Source: a virus. From it: 64,000 nt of DNA. This document shows, in pieces, positions 5,001 to 64,000 of the stretch. The position numbers were made by a program, and so were the translations under genes. The stretch lies in IMG/VR virus record IMGVR_UViG_3300043399_000633, positions 1 to 64,000 of that record. One strand, given 5' to 3'. The notes under the pieces were generated by a model. That model was not told where the DNA came from. It did no database searches and saw nothing but the letters and a program-made list of their open reading frames with translations. Within the stretch, counting starts at the first letter, position 1. Every line of letters begins with the position of its first letter.

Positions 5001-8000
5001 ATCTGGTACATCAGGTATTTCAGGAACATCAGGAACCACAGGTATAAGTGGTTGGAGTGGTACATCGGGTGCATCGGGAACTACAGGTGTAAGCGGGTTT
5101 AGTGGCACAAGTGGTACTACTGGCTTAAGTGGATTCACTGGTGTAAGTGGATTCACTGGTGTAAGTGGCATATCCGGAACTACTGGTATAAGCGGATTCA
5201 GTGGCACTACTGGTATAAGTGGTACATCAGGCACTACTGGTGTAAGTGGATTCAGTGGCACTACTGGTATAAGCGGATTTAGTGGCTCTGGTATAAGCGG
5301 ATTCAGCGGCGCCAGTGGTACATCAGGTACTAGTGGTTTTTCAGGAAAATCTATTAATATTGCAGGCAGCGTAGCATCATATACTTTGTTACCCAATGGT
5401 ACACCAGCTGGCACCGTTTATATCGTTCAAACTTCCGGTGGAGGATATAATGCAGGTGATGGTGCATTGAGCAATGGCGATAATACATGGACTAATATAG
5501 GACCATTGCAAGGACCTTCAGGATTTAGTGGTGTTAGTGGGTCAGGTATTAGTGGATTTAGTGGATTTAGTGGATCAGGCATTAGTGGATTTAGTGGAAC
5601 TACTGGTGTAAGCGGTACATCAGGTACATCAGGTATAAGTGGATTTAGTGGAACTAGTGGTACAACAGGTGTAAGTGGATTTAGCGGAACTAGTGGTACA
5701 ACAGGTATGAGTGGCTTTAGTGGAACATCAGGAATTTCTGGAGCTACAGGTGTAAGTGGATATAGTGGTACAACAGGTGTAAGTGGATTTAGTGGTACAA
5801 GCGGTACATCAGGATGGAGTGGCACCAGTGGTACTACTGGTGTTTCTGGTGTAAGTGGCTGGTCTGGAACTAGTGGTGCAAGTGGCACTACAGGTGTCAG
5901 TGGATTTAGTGGAACATCAGGAATTTCAGGAGCTACAGGTGTAAGTGGTTGGTCGGGTGTTTCAGGTATAAGTGGCACATCAGGTACTAGTGGTTGGTCG
6001 GGTGTTTCAGGTATAAGTGGCACATCAGGTACTAGTGGTTGGTCGGGTGTTTCAGGTATAAGTGGCTTCAGTGGTACAAGTGGTATTACTGGTGTAAGCG
6101 GATTCAGTGGTACTACAGGTGTAAGCGGATTCAGTGGTACAAGTGGTACATCAGGTATTTCAGGTATAAGTGGCTTCAGTGGTACAAGTGGTATTACTGG
6201 TGTAAGTGGCTTTAGCGGCACATCAGGTATTTCTGGAACTACTGGTGTAAGCGGATTCAGTGGTACTACAGGTGTAAGCGGTTGGAGCGGTGTAAGTGGA
6301 ATTTCTGGTTCTAGTGGTTTTTCGGGAACATCAGGATGGTCTGGTGTTAGTGGCCAATCAGGAGTAAGTGGATTTAGTGGCCAATCAGGCGTAAGTGGAT
6401 TTAGTGGTCAATCAGGTATATCAGGTACAAGCGGTACATCAGGTATTTCTGGAACTACTGGTGTAAGTGGATTCAGTGGTGCAAGCGGTACTACAGGCGT
6501 AAGCGGCTGGAGTGGAACTAGTGGTGCTTCAGGAATATCAGGTACGTCTGGATTCACAGGTGTGAGTGGTTGGAGCGGTGTGAGTGGTACATCAGGCGTA
6601 AGCGGTGCATCAGGCACTAGCGGTTGGTCAGGCACTAGCGGTGCATCAGGCACTAGCGGTTGGTCAGGCATTAGCGGTGCATCAGGCACTAGCGGTATCT
6701 CGGGTATAAGTGGTGTAAGTGGATTTAGTGGCACTACTGGTGTTTCTGGTACTACAGGTATTAGTGGATTTAGTGGTACATCAGGAATATCAGGGTATAG
6801 TGGCACTACTGGAGTCAGTGGCTTCAGTGGTACTTCAGGATGGTCAGGCACCACTGGTGTAAGTGGTTTTAGTGGTGCAAGTGGTATAACAGGTGTAAGT
6901 GGATTTAGCGGTGCTTCAGGCACTACAGGCGTAAGTGGTTGGAGTGGTGTAAGTGGTTGGAGTGGTGTAAGTGGTACGTCAGGAGCAAGCGGTACAACTG
7001 GTGTAAGTGGCTGGTCTGGAACTAGTGGTGCTTCAGGTACAACTGGTGTAAGTGGCTGGTCTGGAACTAGTGGTGCTTCAGGTACAACTGGTGTAAGTGG
7101 CTGGTCTGGTGTTTCGGGAACTAGCGGTATTAGCGGAACTTCAGGTACCACTGGTGTAAGTGGCTGGTCTGGAACTAGCGGTGCTTCAGGTACCACTGGT
7201 GTAAGTGGCTGGTCTGGAACTAGTGGTGCTTCAGGTACCACTGGTGTAAGTGGTTTTAGTGGTGCAAGTGGTACAACAGGTGTAAGTGGATTTAGCGGCG
7301 CCTCAGGTACTACTGGTGTAAGTGGATTTAGTGGTGCATCAGGTACCTCAGGATTTAGTGGCTTCAGTGGATCAGGTGTAAGTGGCTTCAGTGGTACATC
7401 GGGTGTAAGTGGTACGTCAGGAGCTAGCGGTACAACTGGTGTAAGTGGCTGGTCTGGAACTAGTGGTGCTTCAGGTACAACTGGTGTAAGTGGCTGGTCT
7501 GGAACTAGCGGTGCTTCAGGTACCACTGGTGTAAGTGGTTTTAGTGGTACATCAGGTATTTCTGGAACTACTGGTTTAAGTGGATTCAGCGGAACATCAG
7601 GTACTACAGGTGTAAGTGGATTCAGCGGAACATCAGGTACTACAGGTGTAAGTGGATTCAGTGGCACAAGTGGTACTACAGGTGTAAGTGGATTTAGTGG
7701 AAGATCAGGATGGAGTGGTACTTCAGGATTTTCAGGTGCCAGTGGTATAGCAGGTGTCTCATCAACTATATTTGAATATTTTGCTGATACGACTGCTACT
7801 TCAGGTGATCCTGGTAATGGAGATATATTATGGAATAATGCGACACAAACCAGTGCCACACAACTAAATGTTAGTTCTACTACTAATGATGGTATAAACA
7901 TTAACATATATCTTGCATTATTACAACAAACAGAAATTATTACTTTGCAAGACAAAGCACAGAGTAATAATTTTCAACGTTGGGAAATCAATGGAACCCC

Positions 8001-30579: not shown

Positions 30580-30654
30580 GCGCTTGTAGTTTAGTGGCAG
30601 AATCAGGGTCTCTAAAGCCCACAGGCATGGGTTCGAATCCCATCGAGCGCACCA
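30580..30654 (+). tRNA. Amber suppressor tRNA, anticodon CTA
   Basis: Acceptor GCGCTTG/CGAGCGC + ACCA; D-loop AGTGG; anticodon loop CT-CTA-AA (30610-30616) on a GGGT/GCCC stem; T arm ATGGG-TTCGAAT-CCCAT. Confidence 0.88.
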
Positions 30655-58011: not shown

Positions 58012-58098
58012 ATACGCTATTCTATAGTGTACTGAACGAACAATGCCCCATGCTTTTGGCGCATGGATCGGCCCTCAGTGTACTATAGAATAGTGTAT
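58012..58098 (+). ncRNA. Long-stem structured RNA cassette
   Basis: 24-bp closing stem with G-U pairs enclosing a CCATGC/GCATGG hairpin. Confidence 0.55.
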
Positions 58099-58175: not shown

Positions 58176-58317
58176 ATCTAATATATTCTAGCACTTAGAG
58201 AATGACTGCACGGGACTGTGGAGCAAAGCAGGAACCCGGCGGCAATAATTGGGTGGTAGCTTGAACCCTACTTCTTGATTCTCATTCTGGTTCACTGAGT
58301 GCTAGAATATATTAGAT
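58176..58317 (+). ncRNA. Long-stem structured RNA cassette
   Basis: ATCTAATATATTCTAGCACTTAG / CTGAGTGCTAGAATATATTAGAT closing stem around ~95 nt of cargo. Confidence 0.55.
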
Positions 58318-59216: not shown

Positions 59217-59278
59217 TAGGATGCTAACAGCAAATTTTAACATCAAACTGCTAATTTGAAACGTTAAAACGCATCCTG
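59217..59278 (+). ncRNA. Rod-shaped RNA presenting an anticodon-like loop (GCT)
   Basis: TAGGATGC/GCATCCTG, TTTTAAC/GTTAAAA, TCAAA-CTGCTAA-TTTGA. Confidence 0.5.
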
Positions 59279-59290
59279 TGATATATCTGT

Positions 59291-59367
59291 TGGGGTGACA
59301 TACGACGGGAAGTATACTGGGCTTTGAACTCAGGTCTTAGTCGGTTCGAATCCGACCACCCTTGCCA
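59291..59367 (+). tRNA. tRNA-Gln(TTG), second divergent copy
   Basis: CTGGG-CT TTG AA-CTCAG; GTCGG-TTCGAAT-CCGAC; GCCA end. Confidence 0.85.
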
Positions 59368-59404
59368 AATTTTTTGTCAGCATAGTTTGTCACTAAATAG
59401 TGAT

Positions 59405-60229
59405 ATGAATATTTCCTATGCTGATAATGGATGGACTGTGTTCATCAACGATGATCTAACCACATTGTCTAACGACGAAATAAAGCAAGTTGCTAAATTC
59501 GTTGTTACAAATATGGTTGTTGTGTTCAAAAAACAAAACCTTACTCCAGAACAGGAATTAAAATTCTGTAGAGTGATAGGCAATCACCAGTACTACCCTG
59601 CTTCGTATGAACGAGGAAAGCATATCAGATTGAATGACGGTATACTTAGGGTGACTGGTAAAAAAAATGAATATGGCGAACCTGGACTTTTTGGCCATAC
59701 TTCTGCACTTGATTGGCATGCCAATCAACCTAGTAACAAAGAACGTAAGCCATTGATTTGGTTGTACGGTGCAGAAGGGACTAAGGGTTCAAGAACAAGC
59801 TGGCTCAACAATATTGCTAGCTATCAGGATTTGCCCACTGATCTCAAAAATGAAATTGATAGTCTACAAGTTTTTTGTGGATACGCAAAAGGCAAGTATT
59901 CTAATAGTTCTTATTTTGTAGAACATGTCAATGAGTCTAATCCCATTGATCTTGTTCAAACAAACAAAGAAGGTAAGAAGGGATTGTTTTTTCCATTCTT
60001 ACAAATATTCGGCTTTAAAGATAAAGACGAACAGTATTTCAACAAAATAATGCAACAATTGATCGATCATGTCGTTCAAGAAAAGTACATGTATCATCAT
60101 GATTGGGATGACGGAGATGTTGTCATTTCAGAACAAATATTAAGCATCCACAAACGTTGGGCTTTTGATGATATGGAAAATCGTGTGTTGCATAGAATTG
60201 CGTTTGACTATTCAAACGTATACAAATAA
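59405..60229 (+). CDS. TauD/TfdA-family dioxygenase-like protein
   Basis: VVFKKQNLTPEQ, WHAN, WDDGDVVISE...HKR...RVLHR; start moved to ATG 59405. Confidence 0.8.
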   Translation: MNISYADNGWTVFINDDLTTLSNDEIKQVAKFVVTNMVVVFKKQNLTPEQELKFCRVIGNHQYYPASYERGKHIRLNDGILRVTGKKNEYGEPGLFGHTSALDWHANQPSNKERKPLIWLYGAEGTKGSRTSWLNNIASYQDLPTDLKNEIDSLQVFCGYAKGKYSNSSYFVEHVNESNPIDLVQTNKEGKKGLFFPFLQIFGFKDKDEQYFNKIMQQLIDHVVQEKYMYHHDWDDGDVVISEQILSIHKRWAFDDMENRVLHRIAFDYSNVYK

Positions 60230-60570: not shown

Positions 60571-60638
60571 TTGACAACAAATGCACTTGGTGATATACTA
60601 TGTGCATACGCTGAGAAATCAGCGACGATCTTTAAAAA
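60571..60638 (+). promoter_or_regulatory. Sigma70 promoter with boxB/boxA-like leader
   Basis: TTGACA-17-TATACT, then CGCTGA-GAAA-TCAGCG hairpin and GATCTTTAAAAA. Confidence 0.7.
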
Positions 60639-60640
60639 GT

Positions 60641-60825
60641 TGTGTTCTTAAGGCTGATGACGGCAATCGTCAGAAGGCTTTAATCCAACCCCGAGCAGAG
60701 TAGCTTTGCCGAGCGAAGTGTTAGGGAGTCTCTATCATTTAGCGGATAGGATACCGGCTCATCGAGCGGGTCACGGTGGGTTCGAATCCCCCTAGAGTTT
60801 ATTGGACGTCAGCCTTAAGAACATA
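60641..60825 (+). ncRNA. 185-nt structured RNA with 19-bp closing stem and embedded tRNA-like domain
   Basis: TGTGTTCTTAAGGCTGATG/CGTCAGCCTTAAGAACATA; internal AGCGGATAG D-like loop and GGTTCGAATCC T-loop. Confidence 0.6.
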
Positions 60826-61184: not shown

Positions 61185-61252
61185 TTGACAATAATTCGTG
61201 CAGGTGCTACAATACATGCATGAGTTGAGAAATCAACTAGTTCTTTATACAA
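61185..61252 (+). promoter_or_regulatory. Sigma70 promoter with boxB/boxA-like leader
   Basis: TTGACA-17-TACAAT, then AGTTGA-GAAA-TCAACT hairpin and GTTCTTTATACAA. Confidence 0.7.
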
Positions 61253-61319
61253 TTTAACGGTTTCAAGGTATTACGTTAAAGAGACACTGGGTTTTCACTA
61301 GTGTTCGTTGACGTAACGT

Positions 61320-61424
61320 GATACCATATTTCAACGCATTAGTGGAGGTTTGCTCAGTAATAGCAACCTTTAAATGAGATGGCTCTGATCTTATCACGCC
61401 AATAGTGTGTTGAAATATGGTATC
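61320..61424 (+). ncRNA. Conserved-stem RNA cassette A
   Basis: GATACCATATTTCAACGCATT ... AGTGTGTTGAAATATGGTATC. Confidence 0.65.
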
Positions 61425-61425
61425 G

Positions 61426-61509
61426 GGAGGTTTGGCAGAGCGGTCGATTGCGCCTGACTGTAAATCAGGTCTTAACAGCACGGTGGTTCGAATCCATCAG
61501 CCTCCACCA
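61426..61509 (+). tRNA. tRNA-Tyr(GTA)
   Basis: CCTGA-CT GTA AA-TCAGG; variable arm; ACCA end. Confidence 0.92.
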
Positions 61510-61515
61510 ATTATC

Positions 61516-61614
61516 GGGCACGTAAGCATCTAGCGGAAGATGCTACTCGCTGTGTTGCCATGAATACAGCAAATAAGGAGGAGAGTGCAGGTTCGAGTCC
61601 TGTCGTGTCCACCA
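61516..61614 (+). ncRNA. tRNA-like RNA with alanine identity and enlarged D and anticodon arms
   Basis: GGGCACG/CGTGTCC-ACCA (G3-U70, A73); canonical T arm; no 7-nt anticodon loop. Confidence 0.65.
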
Positions 61615-61620
61615 AAACAA

Positions 61621-61698
61621 TCCTTGAGTTTGACTGGTCTGCGCGCGGCTTGTTAATAGTTGGGAATGTCACTTTCGACAGTGACCTCAAGGGCCCCA
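61621..61698 (+). ncRNA. Degenerate tRNA-like RNA
   Basis: TCCTTGAG/CTCAAGGG stem; GTCACT-TTCGAC-AGTGAC T-like arm; ends CCA. Confidence 0.4.
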
Positions 61699-61704
61699 AG
61701 TTAT

Positions 61705-61820
61705 GGAGATAGAAACTGACAGATTGAATTAAGTCCTCGTGGAGGCGGATACTGGTTCAATGGTCAGCGGATAACGTGGACGGCGTATGGGTCATGCCTA
61801 TACGCAGGCGGTCTCCACCA
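61705..61820 (+). ncRNA. CCA-terminated structured RNA
   Basis: GGAGAT/GTCTCC-ACCA acceptor-like end; internal CTGAC/GTCAG and GCGTATGGG/CCTATACGC stems. Confidence 0.5.
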
Positions 61821-61825
61821 AGATA

Positions 61826-61902
61826 TAGGCTTTAGAGTGATTGGAAATCCTATCTCTTTCATGAGGAGATGTTGCGAGGTTTGAATCCTCGATAGCCCAC
61901 AC
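61826..61902 (+). pseudogene. Degenerate tRNA with CAT anticodon
   Basis: ATCTC..TTCATGA..GAGAT arm; CGAGG-TTTGAAT-CCTCG; imperfect acceptor and no clean CCA. Confidence 0.45.
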
Positions 61903-61988
61903 AAGTATCCCACACACATCGAATGGTGCGGTAAGGAATCAAGAGATTCTGTCGTGGGAAGTCTAGCAAAAAGCCGTGACGGCTAGAC

Positions 61989-62065
61989 ACCATAGTTCAG
62001 CACATTTTGAAGAAACCCGAGGTCTTCTACGACGGGACGGGGCTCTTAGTGTGCTGAACTATGGT
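61989..62065 (+). ncRNA. Conserved-stem RNA cassette B
   Basis: ACCATAGTTCAGCACATT ... AGTGTGCTGAACTATGGT. Confidence 0.65.
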
Positions 62066-62111
62066 AAAGGAGTAATTAACCTCAACCATACTCGGAAGTC
62101 ATGACTCCGAG

Positions 62112-62240
62112 GACCCGTGGTAGTTTAATGGCAAAATGAGAGAGATGATGGGTTCGTGACCCATCCGTCCTTAGTCGGGGCGTAGGTTAAGTGTAAACCG
62201 CAGACAGATGAGGGTTTCGAAACCCCTCCCACAATGGGTT
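62112..62240 (+). ncRNA. Double-elbow tRNA-like RNA (two D/T arm sets, no anticodon arm)
   Basis: D1 GTTTAATGGCAAAAT, T1 GATGGG-TTCGTGA-CCCATC, CGTCC/GGGCG stem, D2 GGTTAAGTGTAAACC, T2 GAGGG-TTTCGAAAC-CCCTC, closed by ACCC-GTGG/CCAC-AAT-GGGT. Confidence 0.55.
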
Positions 62241-62320
62241 AATATTCAAATTGCTAAAGTAAAATGCTAAAAACCTCAAGTAAATGATAAATAGTTACAC
62301 AACTACTATAGCATTTTACT

Positions 62321-63025
62321 ATGAATTACAAGAACATTTACCATACTCTGATTACTAGAGGCAAAGAAAGAAAGATTGAATCTGAATATAAGGAAATACA
62401 CCATATTATTCCTCGTTGTTTGGGTGGATCAGATGAGATAGAGAATCTGGTCGAACTAACTCCAGAAGAACATTATGTTGCCCATCAACTCTTGATAAAA
62501 ATCTATCCAGATAATCATTCTTTAATTTACGCAGCAAGGATGATGATTGTCAATCGTCCATCAAATAAATTGTATGGCTGGCTTAGAAGAAAATACGCCG
62601 AAGCGGTGTCAATAAATCAAACTGCCGAAGGGAATTCTCAACACGGAACTAAATGGATAACAAATTTACAGGGCGAACAAAAGAAAATAGAAAAAAGTTT
62701 GGTAATTCCCGAAGGATGGGTTGCAGGTAGAAAAAAATTGAGCACTTGTAAATATTGTAACGCATCGTATCTAAAAATTACTAATACAATATTTTGTTCA
62801 GTGATTTGTAAATCATCTTATACTCAGGAAATATTGAGTACTCGGATGAGTAGTAATAACCCAATGAAGGACCCATCTGTTGCTAAAAAGCAAGCAGATA
62901 AGGTAAGAGGTAAGAAAAAGAGCCCACACAAGAGAAAACGAACAGAGGATCACAATCAAAAATTATCGGTTGCGTCGAAGTTGGTCTGGGAAAAAAGAAA
63001 ACAATCTAAAGTGGCGGTAGACTAA
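62321..63025 (+). CDS. HNH homing endonuclease (T4 Mob-like)
   Basis: EIHHIIPRCLGGSDEIENLVELTPEEHYVAHQLL; GATAAATA upstream. Confidence 0.88.
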   Translation: MNYKNIYHTLITRGKERKIESEYKEIHHIIPRCLGGSDEIENLVELTPEEHYVAHQLLIKIYPDNHSLIYAARMMIVNRPSNKLYGWLRRKYAEAVSINQTAEGNSQHGTKWITNLQGEQKKIEKSLVIPEGWVAGRKKLSTCKYCNASYLKITNTIFCSVICKSSYTQEILSTRMSSNNPMKDPSVAKKQADKVRGKKKSPHKRKRTEDHNQKLSVASKLVWEKRKQSKVAVD

Positions 63026-63077
63026 TTGGATAAGTCGCGGCGAAATGGTGGTTTCGAAGTCCACCCCACAATGGGTT
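63011..63077 (+). repeat. Diverged duplicate of the 3' half of the 62112-62240 RNA
   Basis: Shares GTAG..., GGTTTCGAA and CCCACAATGGGTTA, with compensatory stem changes. Confidence 0.65.
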
Positions 63078-63179
63078 ATTATATTTCAGCGCATTAGCAC
63101 TGGCTGCTACCACAGTCAGACGTATTGGTAGATATGCTGGGCAACAACGCCGCCCGGGTAGTGTGCTGAAATATGGTAA
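63076..63179 (+). ncRNA. Conserved-stem RNA cassette C
   Basis: TTATTATATTTCAGCGCATT ... AGTGTGCTGAAATATGGTAA. Confidence 0.65.
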
Positions 63180-63277
63180 GCCTTAATCCAACTGAGGAAC
63201 AAAAGATCGTCAGAGTCGCGTCTGGTAAAGATCAAGTAGTTCCAATTAGGTGACTCAAGGCTGGTTCCCGGCGGGGA

Positions 63278-63414
63278 GCCATATTGAAGCACATTTCTTG
63301 GCTAGTAGCGGAAAGAATACTTAATCGGGTCAACGAGCCTTTACTCCTCCCGAAGAACGGTATCGTAAAGATATAAGGACCGTCTATGTATTGTGAAGTG
63401 TGTTTCAATATGGT
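63278..63414 (+). ncRNA. Conserved-stem RNA cassette D
   Basis: GCCATATTGAAGCACATTT ... AAGTGTGTTTCAATATGGT. Confidence 0.65.
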
Positions 63415-63522
63415 ATGAGAGCCTCTTCAACGACCAGAGTGTCTATTATTGTTGTGGAGATAAAATAGTAGACCGATCTAGATTGGGCAGTGTCCACTAC
63501 TCATAATTTGCTCATACCATTT

Positions 63523-63611
63523 ACCATATTAAAACACATTAGCCTACCTCCACCGAGAGGTAGTTAAAGATAATGACAAGCAACAGCCAGTGTGTTTCAT
63601 CGAGACATGGT
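63523..63611 (+). ncRNA. Conserved-stem RNA cassette E (3' arm partly degenerate)
   Basis: ACCATATTAAAACACATT ... AGTGTGTTTCATCGAGACATGGT. Confidence 0.5.
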
Positions 63612-63700
63612 CTTACTCAAGGATCGCGGTGTTGGGAAGAACGGGAATACATAACCGTCTGTAAGCAATCCTGCACATTGAGAGGGGGTGGAATTCCCCC

Positions 63701-63858
63701 ACCATATTAAAACACATTAGCCTACCCAAGGGCTTGTAGACAGTGGTTGGAAGGATCTACACAAGTGCTATCGCAAGAGGCAGGAACCATCCAGGTGGTG
63801 CTGGACCCTGCGGGGGCTTCGAAATCCTCAGATAAGCCGTAGTGTGTTTTAATATGAT
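63701..63858 (+). ncRNA. Conserved-stem RNA cassette F
   Basis: ACCATATTAAAACACATT ... AGTGTGTTTTAATATGAT; first 26 nt identical to cassette E. Confidence 0.65.
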
Positions 63859-63962
63859 AAGGATACATATGTTGTATGATATTTGATGGAACACCATGCT
63901 TTCTCATGTCATATAGCAAAAGTGGCAGGTTTGTAGCGTACCTGTTGTATAAAAACGCTATG

Positions 63963-64000
63963 ATCATATTGAAACACATTGATCCTAACGATTGTTTAGG
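63963..64000 (+). ncRNA. Conserved-stem RNA cassette G (5' arm only; runs off the window)
   Basis: ATCATATTGAAACACATT matches the 5' arm consensus. Confidence 0.5.

What the first reader, a model, noticed from the sequence alone, without database searches (positions are those of the whole stretch)
61320..64000. Array of RNA cassettes: conserved, covarying closing stem around unrelated structured cargos
Seen: at least seven elements (61320-61424, 61989-62065, 63076-63179, 63278-63414, 63523-63611, 63701-63858, 63963-end) begin with ~ACCATA-N6-C(A/G)CATT. The complete ones end with ~AGTGTG-N6'-TATGGT; cassette E's 3' arm is degenerate and G is truncated. The central 6 bp vary but stay paired (TTTCAA/TTGAAA, GTTCAG/CTGAAC, TTTCAG/CTGAAA, TTGAAG/TTTCAA, TTAAAA/TTTTAA), and G-U pairs occur on the + strand, which points to selection on an RNA helix. 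The enclosed ~40-120 nt cargos differ in sequence and are themselves folded. This is not a CRISPR array, since the repeats are inverted arms, and it is not a tRNA. Inference: a modular phage small-RNA system in which a shared stem acts as a processing signal (RNase III-like) or protein-binding handle that releases or presents different RNAs, e.g. decoys against host defence. More diverged long-stem cassettes at 58012-58098, 58176-58317 and 60641-60825 may belong to the same class.
Basis: partly seen in the sequence, partly recalled or inferred. Interest (0 to 1): 0.9.

Follow-up and report, generated by a model that had tools for sequence, protein, structure and literature searches.

The report
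Constant-stem RNA cassettes in phage tRNA array
An uncultured freshwater giant phage, like over a hundred other phage contigs, places between its tRNA genes small RNA modules with a nearly constant 19-base-pair stem that starts on the CCA end of the RNA upstream and encloses a different folded RNA in each copy; the family appears undescribed and its purpose is unknown.

Summary
All seven elements are at the stated coordinates, and the record continues past the window with more copies (G completes at 64038; H, I, J, M, N follow). The helix is 19 bp. It is 95% paired across 72 different cassettes, and 10 of 19 pairs show compensatory changes (0/500 shuffles). G-U outnumbers A-C 91:15 on the tRNA strand. 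The family is absent from Rfam. It occurs in more than 120 IMG/VR contigs from very different phages, always co-oriented with tRNAs.

New here:
- 55% of copies start exactly on N73-CCA of a tRNA (half of them tRNA-Lys), and 26% end on G1 of the next tRNA.
- One syntenic slot, tRNA-Lys(UUU)-cassette-tRNA-Met, holds 17 unrelated interiors in 21 phages.
- Interiors fall into about 150 families with their own covariation.
- The same kind of hairpin forms the intervening segment of phage two-piece tmRNA genes, which must be excised.

Best reading (about 0.5): these are co-transcribed modules cut out by tRNA-processing enzymes plus a duplex cut, probably by host RNase III. This would free stem-clamped small RNAs that phages exchange like cassettes. 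No RNA ends or enzyme data exist. This scan reported the same family before in at least eight other genomes.

The parts
61185..61213 (+). sigma-70-type promoter match (TTGACA-17-TACAAT, 11/12) heading the transcription unit that holds cassette A
   Evidence: All nine matches of 11/12 or better in the array are on the + strand. Consensus match only.
61319..61425 (+). cassette A: 23-bp closing stem with a 61-nt two-hairpin interior. tRNA-Tyr starts at 61426.
   Evidence: 54.5 bits. The same interior occurs with compensated arms in L093 and in an RNA-library contig with other flanks.
61988..62066 (+). cassette B: 18-bp stem and 41-nt interior. It is preceded by a 7-bp hairpin followed by ACCA.
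   Evidence: 55.5 bits
63076..63180 (+). cassette C: 21-bp stem whose outer box is AUUAUA (two U-G pairs in place of C-G), with a three-hairpin interior
   Evidence: 43.2 bits
63277..63415 (+). cassette D: 20-bp stem and 97-nt interior
   Evidence: 49.1 bits; covered by RNA-library contigs
63522..63612 (+). cassette E: variant with 5 + 9 bp around an asymmetric internal loop in the 3' arm
   Evidence: 25.3 bits; the same form occurs in L093
63700..63859 (+). cassette F: 17-bp stem, 120-nt interior with a T-loop-like hairpin. It is preceded by a GGGGG/CCCCC hairpin followed by ACCA.
   Evidence: 48.4 bits. An RNA-library contig matches exactly 63699-63857 with unrelated flanks.
63962..64000 (+). 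cassette G, 5' part. It completes at 64039 in the record (19-bp stem, 38-nt interior). Further copies lie beyond the window: H 64146-64219, I 64310-64401, J 66934-67041, M 70928-71020, N 73109-73194, and a cargo-less hairpin at 74087-74130.
58012..58098 (+). diverged long-stem module (24 bp, 3 G-U), ending 2 nt before tRNA-Gln
   Evidence: not detected by model R1
58176..58317 (+). diverged long-stem module (23 bp). It starts on the base after the CCA of tRNA-Gln and ends 4 nt before tRNA-Ile. Its inner box GCACUUAG/CUGAGUGC resembles the family's.
   Evidence: not detected by R1
60641..60825 (+). diverged long-stem module (19 bp) with a 147-nt interior that includes a T-arm-like hairpin. It lies downstream of a promoter match at 60571-60599.
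   Evidence: not detected by R1

Best explanation
The elements belong to a widespread, apparently undescribed family of RNA modules that phages carry inside their tRNA arrays. They are transcribed with the tRNAs from host-type promoters.

Each module is a 19-bp helix. Its first bases are the discriminator and CCA of the RNA upstream, often tRNA-Lys. Its last bases often are, or abut, G1 of the next tRNA. The helix has a nearly constant outer box (ACCAUA/UAUGGU), a variable covarying middle with a frequent A-C mismatch, and a nearly constant inner box (A-A/G-CACAUU / AGUGUG-Y-U) that contains an invariant U-A, U-G step. It encloses a structured interior of 25-160 nt, of which there are about 150 different families.

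Proposed mechanism (inferred, not shown):
1. RNase P cuts at the 3' boundary where a tRNA follows.
2. A duplex-specific endonuclease, most likely host RNase III guided by the inner box, cuts in the weak middle of the helix.
3. Exonucleases trim the short trailer back to CCA.
4. The result is a mature upstream tRNA and a stem-clamped, nuclease-resistant small RNA.

The constant arms also serve as homology for recombination, so interiors are exchanged between phages like cassettes. What the interiors do is unknown.
For: Shown here:
- Helix and covariation.
- G-U 91 against A-C 15 on the tRNA strand, outside the two fixed odd pairs.
- Co-orientation with tRNAs, 2186 against 34 within 3 kb.
- 106 of 193 cassettes start on the CCA of a called tRNA, and 50 of 193 end on or at G1 of the next. 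On the second cassette set, 122 of 236 abut an upstream tRNA and 57 of 236 a downstream one.
- In this record: A abuts tRNA-Tyr; tRNA-Lys(UUU), cassette J and tRNA-Met overlap end to end; L and M start on the CCA of tRNA-Leu genes.
- All nine best sigma-70-type promoter matches in the array are on the + strand.
- Cassette sequences occur in freshwater metatranscriptome assemblies.
- Five of six permuted tmRNA genes in the fetched loci and genomes have, as intervening segment, a long stem-closed hairpin running from ACCA to G1 of the coding piece. One of them is hit by the cassette model.
- Interiors form about 156 clusters with compensatory pairs of their own. Cargo-less hairpins are rare, 2 of about 240.
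- The tRNA-Lys/tRNA-Met slot holds 17 interior families in 21 phages.
- Homology to relatives stops at the cassette ends.

From the literature:
- The intervening segment is absent from mature two-piece tmRNA and is removed by tRNA-processing enzymes (PMC11915505).
- E. coli RNase III needs about 11 bp, and its optimal distal box is a U-A then a U-G pair (PMC1540722).
Against: - There is no end-mapping and no enzyme assay; assembled contigs cannot show RNA ends.
- The four pairs that would correspond to the RNase III proximal box (A-U, C-G, A-U, A-U) do not match the E. coli optimum (G-C, A-U/U-A, A-U, A-U/U-A). The strand polarity of the distal-box match could not be checked, because the paper's figures are not held.
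- Such strict sequence conservation is more than RNase III is known to need, and it spans phages that share only 12 proteins. This could instead point to a dedicated, unidentified binding protein.
- No phage RNase III occurs in 30 cassette-bearing records, 4 of them complete or nearly so, so a host enzyme must be assumed and the hosts are unknown.
- 43% of cassettes have neither flank on a called tRNA.
Confidence: 0.5

Rival explanations
1. The helix is an uncut protein-binding handle. The constant stem recruits one host or phage protein and presents the variable interior, as Y RNAs do with Ro60. The module acts as an intact ribonucleoprotein after tRNA-type end trimming.
For: - Sequence conservation goes beyond what structure needs. 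There are two constant boxes half a turn or more apart, an invariant U-G, and a recurrent A-C mismatch. This is typical of protein recognition.
- The design is modular, with a constant handle and a variable module.
- About 10% of interior families carry T-loop hairpins, as YrlA does.
Against: - There is no Rfam Y RNA or YrlA match on any cassette at E<=1.
- No TROVE protein is found in this record.
- The DUF2828/DUF7788 protein next to the array is present in only 7 of 30 cassette-bearing records and in none of the 4 complete ones.
- No candidate RNA-binding protein is shared by three complete genomes.
- In tmRNA genes the same hairpin must be removed (PMC11915505).
Confidence: 0.2
2. The hairpin is punctuation only. 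It exists to make or protect the 3' end of the RNA upstream and the 5' end of the next. The interior is tolerated filler that drifts and is replaced freely.
For: - Unrelated interiors sit at one syntenic slot.
- A cargo-less copy sits directly after the GOLLD RNA.
- The tmRNA intervening segments have no known role of their own (PMC11915505).
- Any compact fold that brings the arms together would show compensatory changes.
Against: - Cargo-less copies are rare, 2 of about 240, and the shortest usual interior is 25-29 nt.
- The same interior families recur in unrelated contexts and with different arms.
- Interiors are conserved in sequence as well as in pairing.
- Several cassettes stand in tandem without tRNAs between them (63076-64401).
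Confidence: 0.17
3. It is a DNA-level element. The inverted arms are ends of a small mobile element or recombination sites folded as single-stranded DNA (attC-like or MITE-like) that target the 3' end of tRNA genes.
For: - The layout is inverted repeats, with two boxes and a spacer on each arm and a variable centre of 30-160 nt, as in integron attC sites (own knowledge).
- Interiors are swapped at fixed sites.
- Homology breakpoints lie at the arms.
- G-T is also the most stable DNA mismatch.
Against: - There are no target-site duplications.
- Copies of one 'element' do not share the interior.
- Orientation with the tRNAs is strict.
- The boundaries coincide with RNA processing sites (CCA and G1).
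- The interiors have RNA-type covariation.
- No integrase or transposase is shared by the complete genomes.
- The cassettes are present in RNA libraries.
Confidence: 0.08

Closest known systems
Intervening segment of circularly permuted (two-piece) tmRNA genes (Rfam RF01850, RF04321; Keiler et al. 2000; PMC11915505)
   Same: Both are hairpins that begin at the encoded CCA of a tRNA-like 3' end and stop at G1 of the following tRNA-like 5' end. The intervening segment is absent from the mature RNA. In phage loci L011, L088, L099 and genome G003 its stem carries the same kind of inner box, and L011's is hit by the cassette model.
   Different: There, both flanks belong to one molecule, there is one copy per genome, and no role is known for the excised piece. 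Here the hairpin stands between separate RNAs, comes in up to 13 or more copies per phage, and encloses about 150 conserved interior families.
RNase III processing stalks: stems bracketing 16S/23S rRNA in rRNA operons, and phage T7 early sites such as R1.1 (PMC1540722)
   Same: Both are long helices formed by sequences flanking an RNA inside a polycistronic stable-RNA or phage transcript. The length is near two turns, there is a mismatch in the helix, and there is a U-A/U-G step like the distal box.
   Different: Cleavage is not shown here. The proximal-box positions differ from the E. coli optimum. Sequence is far more conserved than among known RNase III sites. The helix is anchored on a tRNA CCA end.
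Phage T4 stable RNAs species 1 and 2 (rnaC, rnaD) in the T4 tRNA cluster (own knowledge, not checked here)
   Same: Both are small stable RNAs of unknown function, encoded among phage tRNA genes and matured with them.
   Different: T4 has two, without a shared constant stem or exchangeable interiors. No sequence comparison was made.
Y RNAs / YrlA (Rfam RF02553; PMC4201824)
   Same: Both have 5' and 3' ends paired into a conserved stem with a variable, sometimes tRNA-like, module. Both occur in phages near tRNAs.
   Different: No model match, no Ro-type bulged helix, and no co-occurring Ro60.
tRNA-punctuated RNA release: MHV68 tRNA-miRNA transcripts and engineered polycistronic tRNA-gRNA arrays (own knowledge)
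   Same: Hairpin RNAs flanked by tRNAs would be freed by tRNA-processing enzymes.
   Different: Those are eukaryotic or engineered systems that use RNase Z on tRNAs without CCA. Here the CCA is encoded and paired into the stem.
Integron attC sites (own knowledge)
   Same: Both have two conserved boxes per arm, a spacer with unpaired bases, a variable central structure of similar size, and an array organisation with exchangeable units.
   Different: attC acts as folded single-stranded DNA with an integrase. No integrase is found here, and the boundaries fit RNA processing sites.

Membership tests
Any Rfam family (release 15) | Covariance-model match at or near the gathering score | tested here: not met
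   No hit on any cassette at E<=1 in this record, nor at E<=0.01 in six other loci. The tRNAs, GOLLD, tmRNA and a group I intron were found by the same searches.
Y RNA / YrlA | Match to RF02553/RF00019 and a co-occurring Ro60 (TROVE) protein | tested here: not met
   Weak YrlA hits fall on tRNAs only. There is no TROVE match in the record, which is only 27% complete. The DUF2828/DUF7788 protein is absent from all 4 complete cassette-bearing genomes.
RNase III substrate (E. coli rules, PMC1540722) | Helix of at least about 11 bp between the cut and the helix end, about 20 bp overall | tested here: met
   The helix is 19 bp, from N73 to position 17.
RNase III substrate (E. coli rules, PMC1540722) | Distal box U-A then U-G; proximal box G-C, A-U/U-A, A-U, A-U/U-A | tested here: inconclusive
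   Positions 16 and 15 are U-A and U-G in 99% and 96% of cassettes. The polarity relative to the published substrate could not be verified. The would-be proximal box reads A-U, C-G, A-U, A-U, which is only a partial fit.
RNase III substrate | Staggered cleavage in the helix by RNase III | not testable with these tools
   Only assembled contigs of RNA libraries were available.
Intervening segment of permuted tmRNA genes | Lies between the encoded CCA of the acceptor piece and G1 of the coding piece of one tmRNA | tested here: not met
   The window's cassettes lie between separate RNAs, and no tmRNA is found in this record. The phage tmRNA intervening segments in L011, L088, L099, L048 and G003 are the same kind of hairpin, so this is a likeness of form and probably of processing, not membership.
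MITE / DNA transposon | Terminal inverted repeats with target-site duplication; copies share the internal sequence; either orientation | tested here: not met
   No direct repeats flank the arms. Interiors are unrelated between copies. Orientation follows the tRNAs, 2186 to 34.
CRISPR array | Direct repeats separated by unique spacers | tested here: not met
   The repeated units are inverted arms of one helix.
Retron ncRNA | a1/a2 inverted repeats with a conserved branching G after a1 and an adjacent reverse transcriptase | tested here: inconclusive
   The base after the 5' arm is not conserved. No reverse-transcriptase search was run. The ORFs in the array are HNH endonucleases, a TauD-type dioxygenase, a hydrolase and a methyltransferase.

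The most novel reading that the evidence does not exclude
The constant arms are at once a processing signal and a recombination handle. Together they would form an RNA-cassette exchange system: very different freshwater phages draw on a common pool of more than 150 small structured RNAs and install them at fixed slots in their tRNA arrays. The preferred slot is behind tRNA-Lys, tRNA-Glu and tRNA-Gln, which are the tRNAs that anticodon nucleases attack. The interiors would then be fast-turning-over decoys or inhibitors aimed at host tRNA-directed defences or RNA enzymes.
Probability: 0.2. Interest if true: 0.9.

Novelty: new variant of a known kind. Interest (0 to 1): 0.72.

Why it matters
Phage tRNA arrays are usually read as codon-usage or anti-defence tRNA supplies. 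This family shows that they also carry a large, exchangeable repertoire of small structured RNAs on a common scaffold. That repertoire is a new pool of phage non-coding RNAs of unknown function, about 150 families in 120 loci.

If the stem is a defined processing signal, it explains how CCA ends are freed in densely packed phage arrays and in phage two-piece tmRNAs. It would also give a natural, portable 'tRNA-hairpin-tRNA' expression scaffold.

The association with tRNA-Lys/Glu/Gln makes a link to tRNA-targeting immunity testable.

Tried and rejected
- Megablast of 61200-64000 against 50,697 GenBank phage records found no match.
- Rfam at the gathering threshold and at E<=1 found nothing on the cassettes.
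- Phage-encoded RNase III (PF14622): none in this record or in 30 cassette-bearing records.
- TROVE/Ro60: none in this record.
- The 471-aa DUF2828/DUF7788 protein as a partner: it is absent from the complete genomes.
- Proteome comparison of three complete cassette-bearing genomes: only 12 shared proteins (Clp protease, rubrerythrin, ferritin, wall hydrolase, SbcC-like, 5'-3' exonuclease, PhoH, lysozyme and two unknowns), none an evident RNA endonuclease.
- The alternative register, with the 3' arm of one cassette pairing with the 5' arm of the next, is possible for near-identical neighbours but is contradicted by the central covariation.
- Solo arms: their number is close to chance for the relaxed pattern.
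- Laying RNA-library contigs shows presence only and no ends. Stretches without cover, such as the HNH ORF, say nothing about expression.
- Retron-like reading: there is no conserved G after the 5' arm.
- Promoter reading of the A/T-rich arm: it does not fit the consensus.
- Literature searches found no description of the family. This covers open-access papers only.
- The bacterial-genome scan gave 5 hits. Four lie in three short MAG contigs that are themselves dense tRNA arrays, again with tRNA-Lys directly upstream. The fifth has no tRNA nearby and is probably chance.
Full report
**Setting.** The window is the first 64 kb of a 96,886-bp IMG/VR virus record that CheckV rates 27% complete, so it comes from a giant phage. 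Sequencing runs holding the sequence are freshwater and lake metagenomes. From 58.1 to 75.4 kb the record is one tRNA array: at least 41 tRNA genes, all on the + strand. The array also holds four HNH endonuclease ORFs, a TauD-type dioxygenase, a hydrolase and a methyltransferase, and a GOLLD RNA at 73620-74084 (226 bits). The nine best sigma-70-type promoter matches in the array (11-12 of 12) are all on the + strand. One lies at 61185-61213, just upstream of cassette A. The finding lies inside this array.

**The observation.** Reading on in the record completes G (63963-64038) and adds H (64146-64219), I (64310-64401), J (66934-67041), M (70928-71020) and N (73109-73194). K (64488-64601) and L (69745-69954) are more distant. 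A blind scan of both strands of the whole record for stems of 13 bp or more places all stems of 17 bp or more with few G-U pairs in the tRNA region. These stems are longer on the + strand because of G-U pairs.

**Spread.** In 596 Gb of bacterial and archaeal genomes it hit five stretches. Four of these lie in three short MAG contigs that are dense tRNA arrays with tRNA-Lys directly upstream. The carriers include complete or near-complete genomes of 100, 160, 162 and 400 kb. Three of these were fetched whole, and they share only 12 of 222 proteins at E<1e-4. The module therefore crosses phage lineages.

**The helix.** In 176 distinct cassettes the pairing runs from the base before CCA (N73; A-U or G-U in 81%) to position 17, which makes 19 bp. 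Pairing falls to background one position further on either side. Positions that the search pattern left free covary:

| Position | Pair counts |
|---|---|
| 6 | A-U 82, U-A 75, G-C 10 |
| 10 | A-U 127, G-U 29, G-C 17 |
| 17 | all four Watson-Crick pairs plus G-U |

On an alignment of 72 cassettes, one per interior family, 95.4% of cells pair and 10 of 19 pairs change on both sides. No shuffle out of 500 reaches the observed values, and slid controls pair at 29-51%.

Two odd pairs are fixtures. One is U-G at position 15 (96%), next to U-A at position 16. The other is position 7, which is A-C in 43% and G-C in 30%. Outside these two positions, G-U outnumbers A-C by 91 to 15 on the tRNA strand. 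The covariance model scores the + strand 5-18 bits higher in every copy. The helix is therefore selected on the + strand, which is the transcribed one.

**Link to tRNA ends.** tRNAs within 3 kb of cassettes lie on the cassette's strand 2186 times and on the other strand 34 times.
- In 106 of 193 cassettes the first three bases of the outer box are the CCA of a tRNA called by ARAGORN.
- In 50 of 193 the next tRNA starts on the GG of the 3' arm or on the next base.
- In this record A ends one base before tRNA-Tyr. J shares ACCA with tRNA-Lys(UUU) and GG with the following tRNA-Met. L and M start on the CCA of tRNA-Leu genes.
- Cassettes B, F and H are preceded not by tRNAs but by short hairpins followed by ACCA.
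- The upstream tRNA is strongly biased: Lys 61, Glu 16, Leu 13 and Gln 12 of 122, although Lys makes up only 6% of the tRNAs in these loci. The downstream tRNA is Met in 28 of 57. Shared descent inflates these counts, but the tRNA-Lys genes concerned average only 81% identity.

**The interiors.** 205 distinct interiors fall into about 156 clusters. None matches Rfam. Families recur in different contigs with different arms and different neighbours. For example, this window's A and G interiors occur in L093 and L091. In L093 the A interior has arms that differ from ours by a compensated pair.

Two families tested by alignment folding show compensatory changes inside the interior, 7 pairs in one family. 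T-loop hairpins are the most enriched motif, found in 10-15 of 152 families against 0.5 expected. Cargo-less hairpins are rare. One was found among 236 cassettes in the loci. Another, at 74087-74130, sits three bases after the GOLLD RNA.

At the syntenic slot between tRNA-Lys(UUU) and tRNA-Met(CAU), 21 phages carry 17 different interior families on near-identical arms. RNA-library contigs from relatives match cassettes A and F from arm to arm and then diverge. Interiors are therefore exchanged as units, with the arms as boundaries. That this happens by recombination between the arms is an inference.

**How it may work.** A lead from an earlier report of this scan was tested here. Six permuted (two-piece) tmRNA genes lie in the fetched loci and genomes. 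In five of them the intervening segment is a long stem-closed hairpin that begins at the ACCA of the acceptor piece and ends at G1 of the coding piece. Four carry inner boxes such as CACAUU/AGUGUG or CAUAUU/AGUAUG, and the one in L011 is hit by the cassette model at E=1.7e-4.

[quoted passage not shown] A free CCA end is needed for charging. The cells these phages infect therefore have an activity that removes exactly such a hairpin from a CCA end.

By analogy, the cassettes would be excised in three steps:
1. RNase P cuts at G1 of a following tRNA (established enzyme specificity; inferred here).
2. A cut is made within or at the base of the helix.
3. The trailer is trimmed back to CCA.

For the helix cut, host RNase III is the simplest candidate.
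- The helix is 19 bp.
- The constant inner block of eight to nine pairs has the size of the distal, middle and proximal box set that suffices to specify an E. coli RNase III site.
- It ends in U-A then U-G, which is the optimal distal box (PMC1540722).
- The cut would then fall near the weak position 7.

The fit is partial. The proximal-box pairs differ from the optimum, and the polarity could not be checked. No phage RNase III exists in 30 carriers, and no shared phage protein looks like a dedicated enzyme. The product would be a small RNA clamped by 9-10 bp or more, hence resistant to exonucleases.

**What is not known.** No RNA ends, no cleavage, no partner and no function of any interior have been established. 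Only assembled contigs of RNA libraries could be laid. They show that cassette sequences are present in metatranscriptomes, nothing more.

**Rivals.** Three rival readings remain:
- an uncut protein-binding handle of the Y RNA kind;
- pure punctuation with filler interiors;
- a DNA-level element.

Evidence for and against each is given in the Rival explanations section. The DNA reading is the weakest, because the boundaries coincide with RNA processing sites, the orientation is strict and the interiors covary as RNA.

**Comparison and novelty.** The closest known things are the intervening segment of two-piece tmRNA genes and RNase III processing stalks. The cassettes resemble both in form and probably in processing, but are members of neither. 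They stand between separate RNAs, come in many copies, have a near-constant sequence anchored on CCA, and carry a large set of conserved, exchangeable interiors. Four searches of the open-access library found no description. This scan has reported the same family in at least eight other genomes, with similar conclusions. I rate it a new variant of a known kind (stem-flanked RNAs processed out of stable-RNA transcripts), with interest 0.72.

Noticed in passing
record 73620-74084 (beyond the window; L001 16620-17084) and 74087-74130: A GOLLD RNA (Rfam RF02032, 226 bits) with an embedded tRNA-Ile. It is followed three bases later by a cargo-less copy of the cassette hairpin (18-bp stem, 4-nt loop, with the A-C mismatch).
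   Followed up: partly
window 62140-62985 (HNH ORF 62321-63025): RNA-library contigs from relatives join 62128 to 63015/63043 and skip about 890-915 bases. The HNH endonuclease gene is therefore an insertion absent from relatives. It interrupts a structured, tRNA-like RNA and is flanked by the repeated CCCACAAUGGGUUA.
   Followed up: partly
window 61510-61613: A tRNA-like element with a 7-bp acceptor stem, a T arm and ACCA, but an oversized middle. ARAGORN does not call it. One RNA-library contig of a relative skips exactly 61510-61613.
   Followed up: no
window 60571-60625, 61185-61240; record 64403-64455, 73028-73080: Strong sigma-70-type promoter matches (TTGACA-17-TATACT/TACAAT) on the + strand. 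Each is followed within about 10-15 nt by a small hairpin with a GAAA loop (for example GCUGA-GAAA-UCAGC), reminiscent of boxB-type antitermination hairpins.
   Followed up: no
all loci: Half of all tRNA-Lys genes in the cassette-bearing loci are directly followed by a cassette. tRNA-Glu, tRNA-Gln and tRNA-Leu come next. These are largely the tRNAs that known anticodon nucleases target.
   Followed up: partly
L011 13937-14332; L088, L099, L113, L048; G003 6176-6544: Phage-encoded permuted (two-piece) tmRNA genes, of beta-proteobacterial type in L011. This hints at betaproteobacterial hosts for some carriers. Their intervening segments are cassette-like hairpins, except in L113, where the segment is long.
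   Followed up: yes
record 76159-77574 (L128 1159-2574): A 471-aa protein with DUF7788 and DUF2828 domains lies just after the tRNA array. It is 56-74% identical in 7 of 30 other cassette-bearing records. Another first-stage note links it to a second RNA family with an ACAGCAA handle (for example window 59217-59278).
   Followed up: partly
window 63180-63277, 63415-63522, 63612-63700, 63859-63962; record 64039-64146, 64219-64311: The roughly 100-nt spacers between tandem cassettes are themselves folded. Several end in a short hairpin followed by ACCA, and the E-F spacer is conserved in L093. They may be further CCA-ended small RNAs.
   Followed up: partly
window 30580-30654: A tRNA with anticodon CUA (amber suppressor type; ARAGORN calls it tRNA-Pyl) lies 27 kb away from the main array.
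   Followed up: no
window 59324-60229: A TauD/TfdA-family dioxygenase gene (Pfam E=1e-25) sits in the middle of the tRNA array.
   Followed up: no
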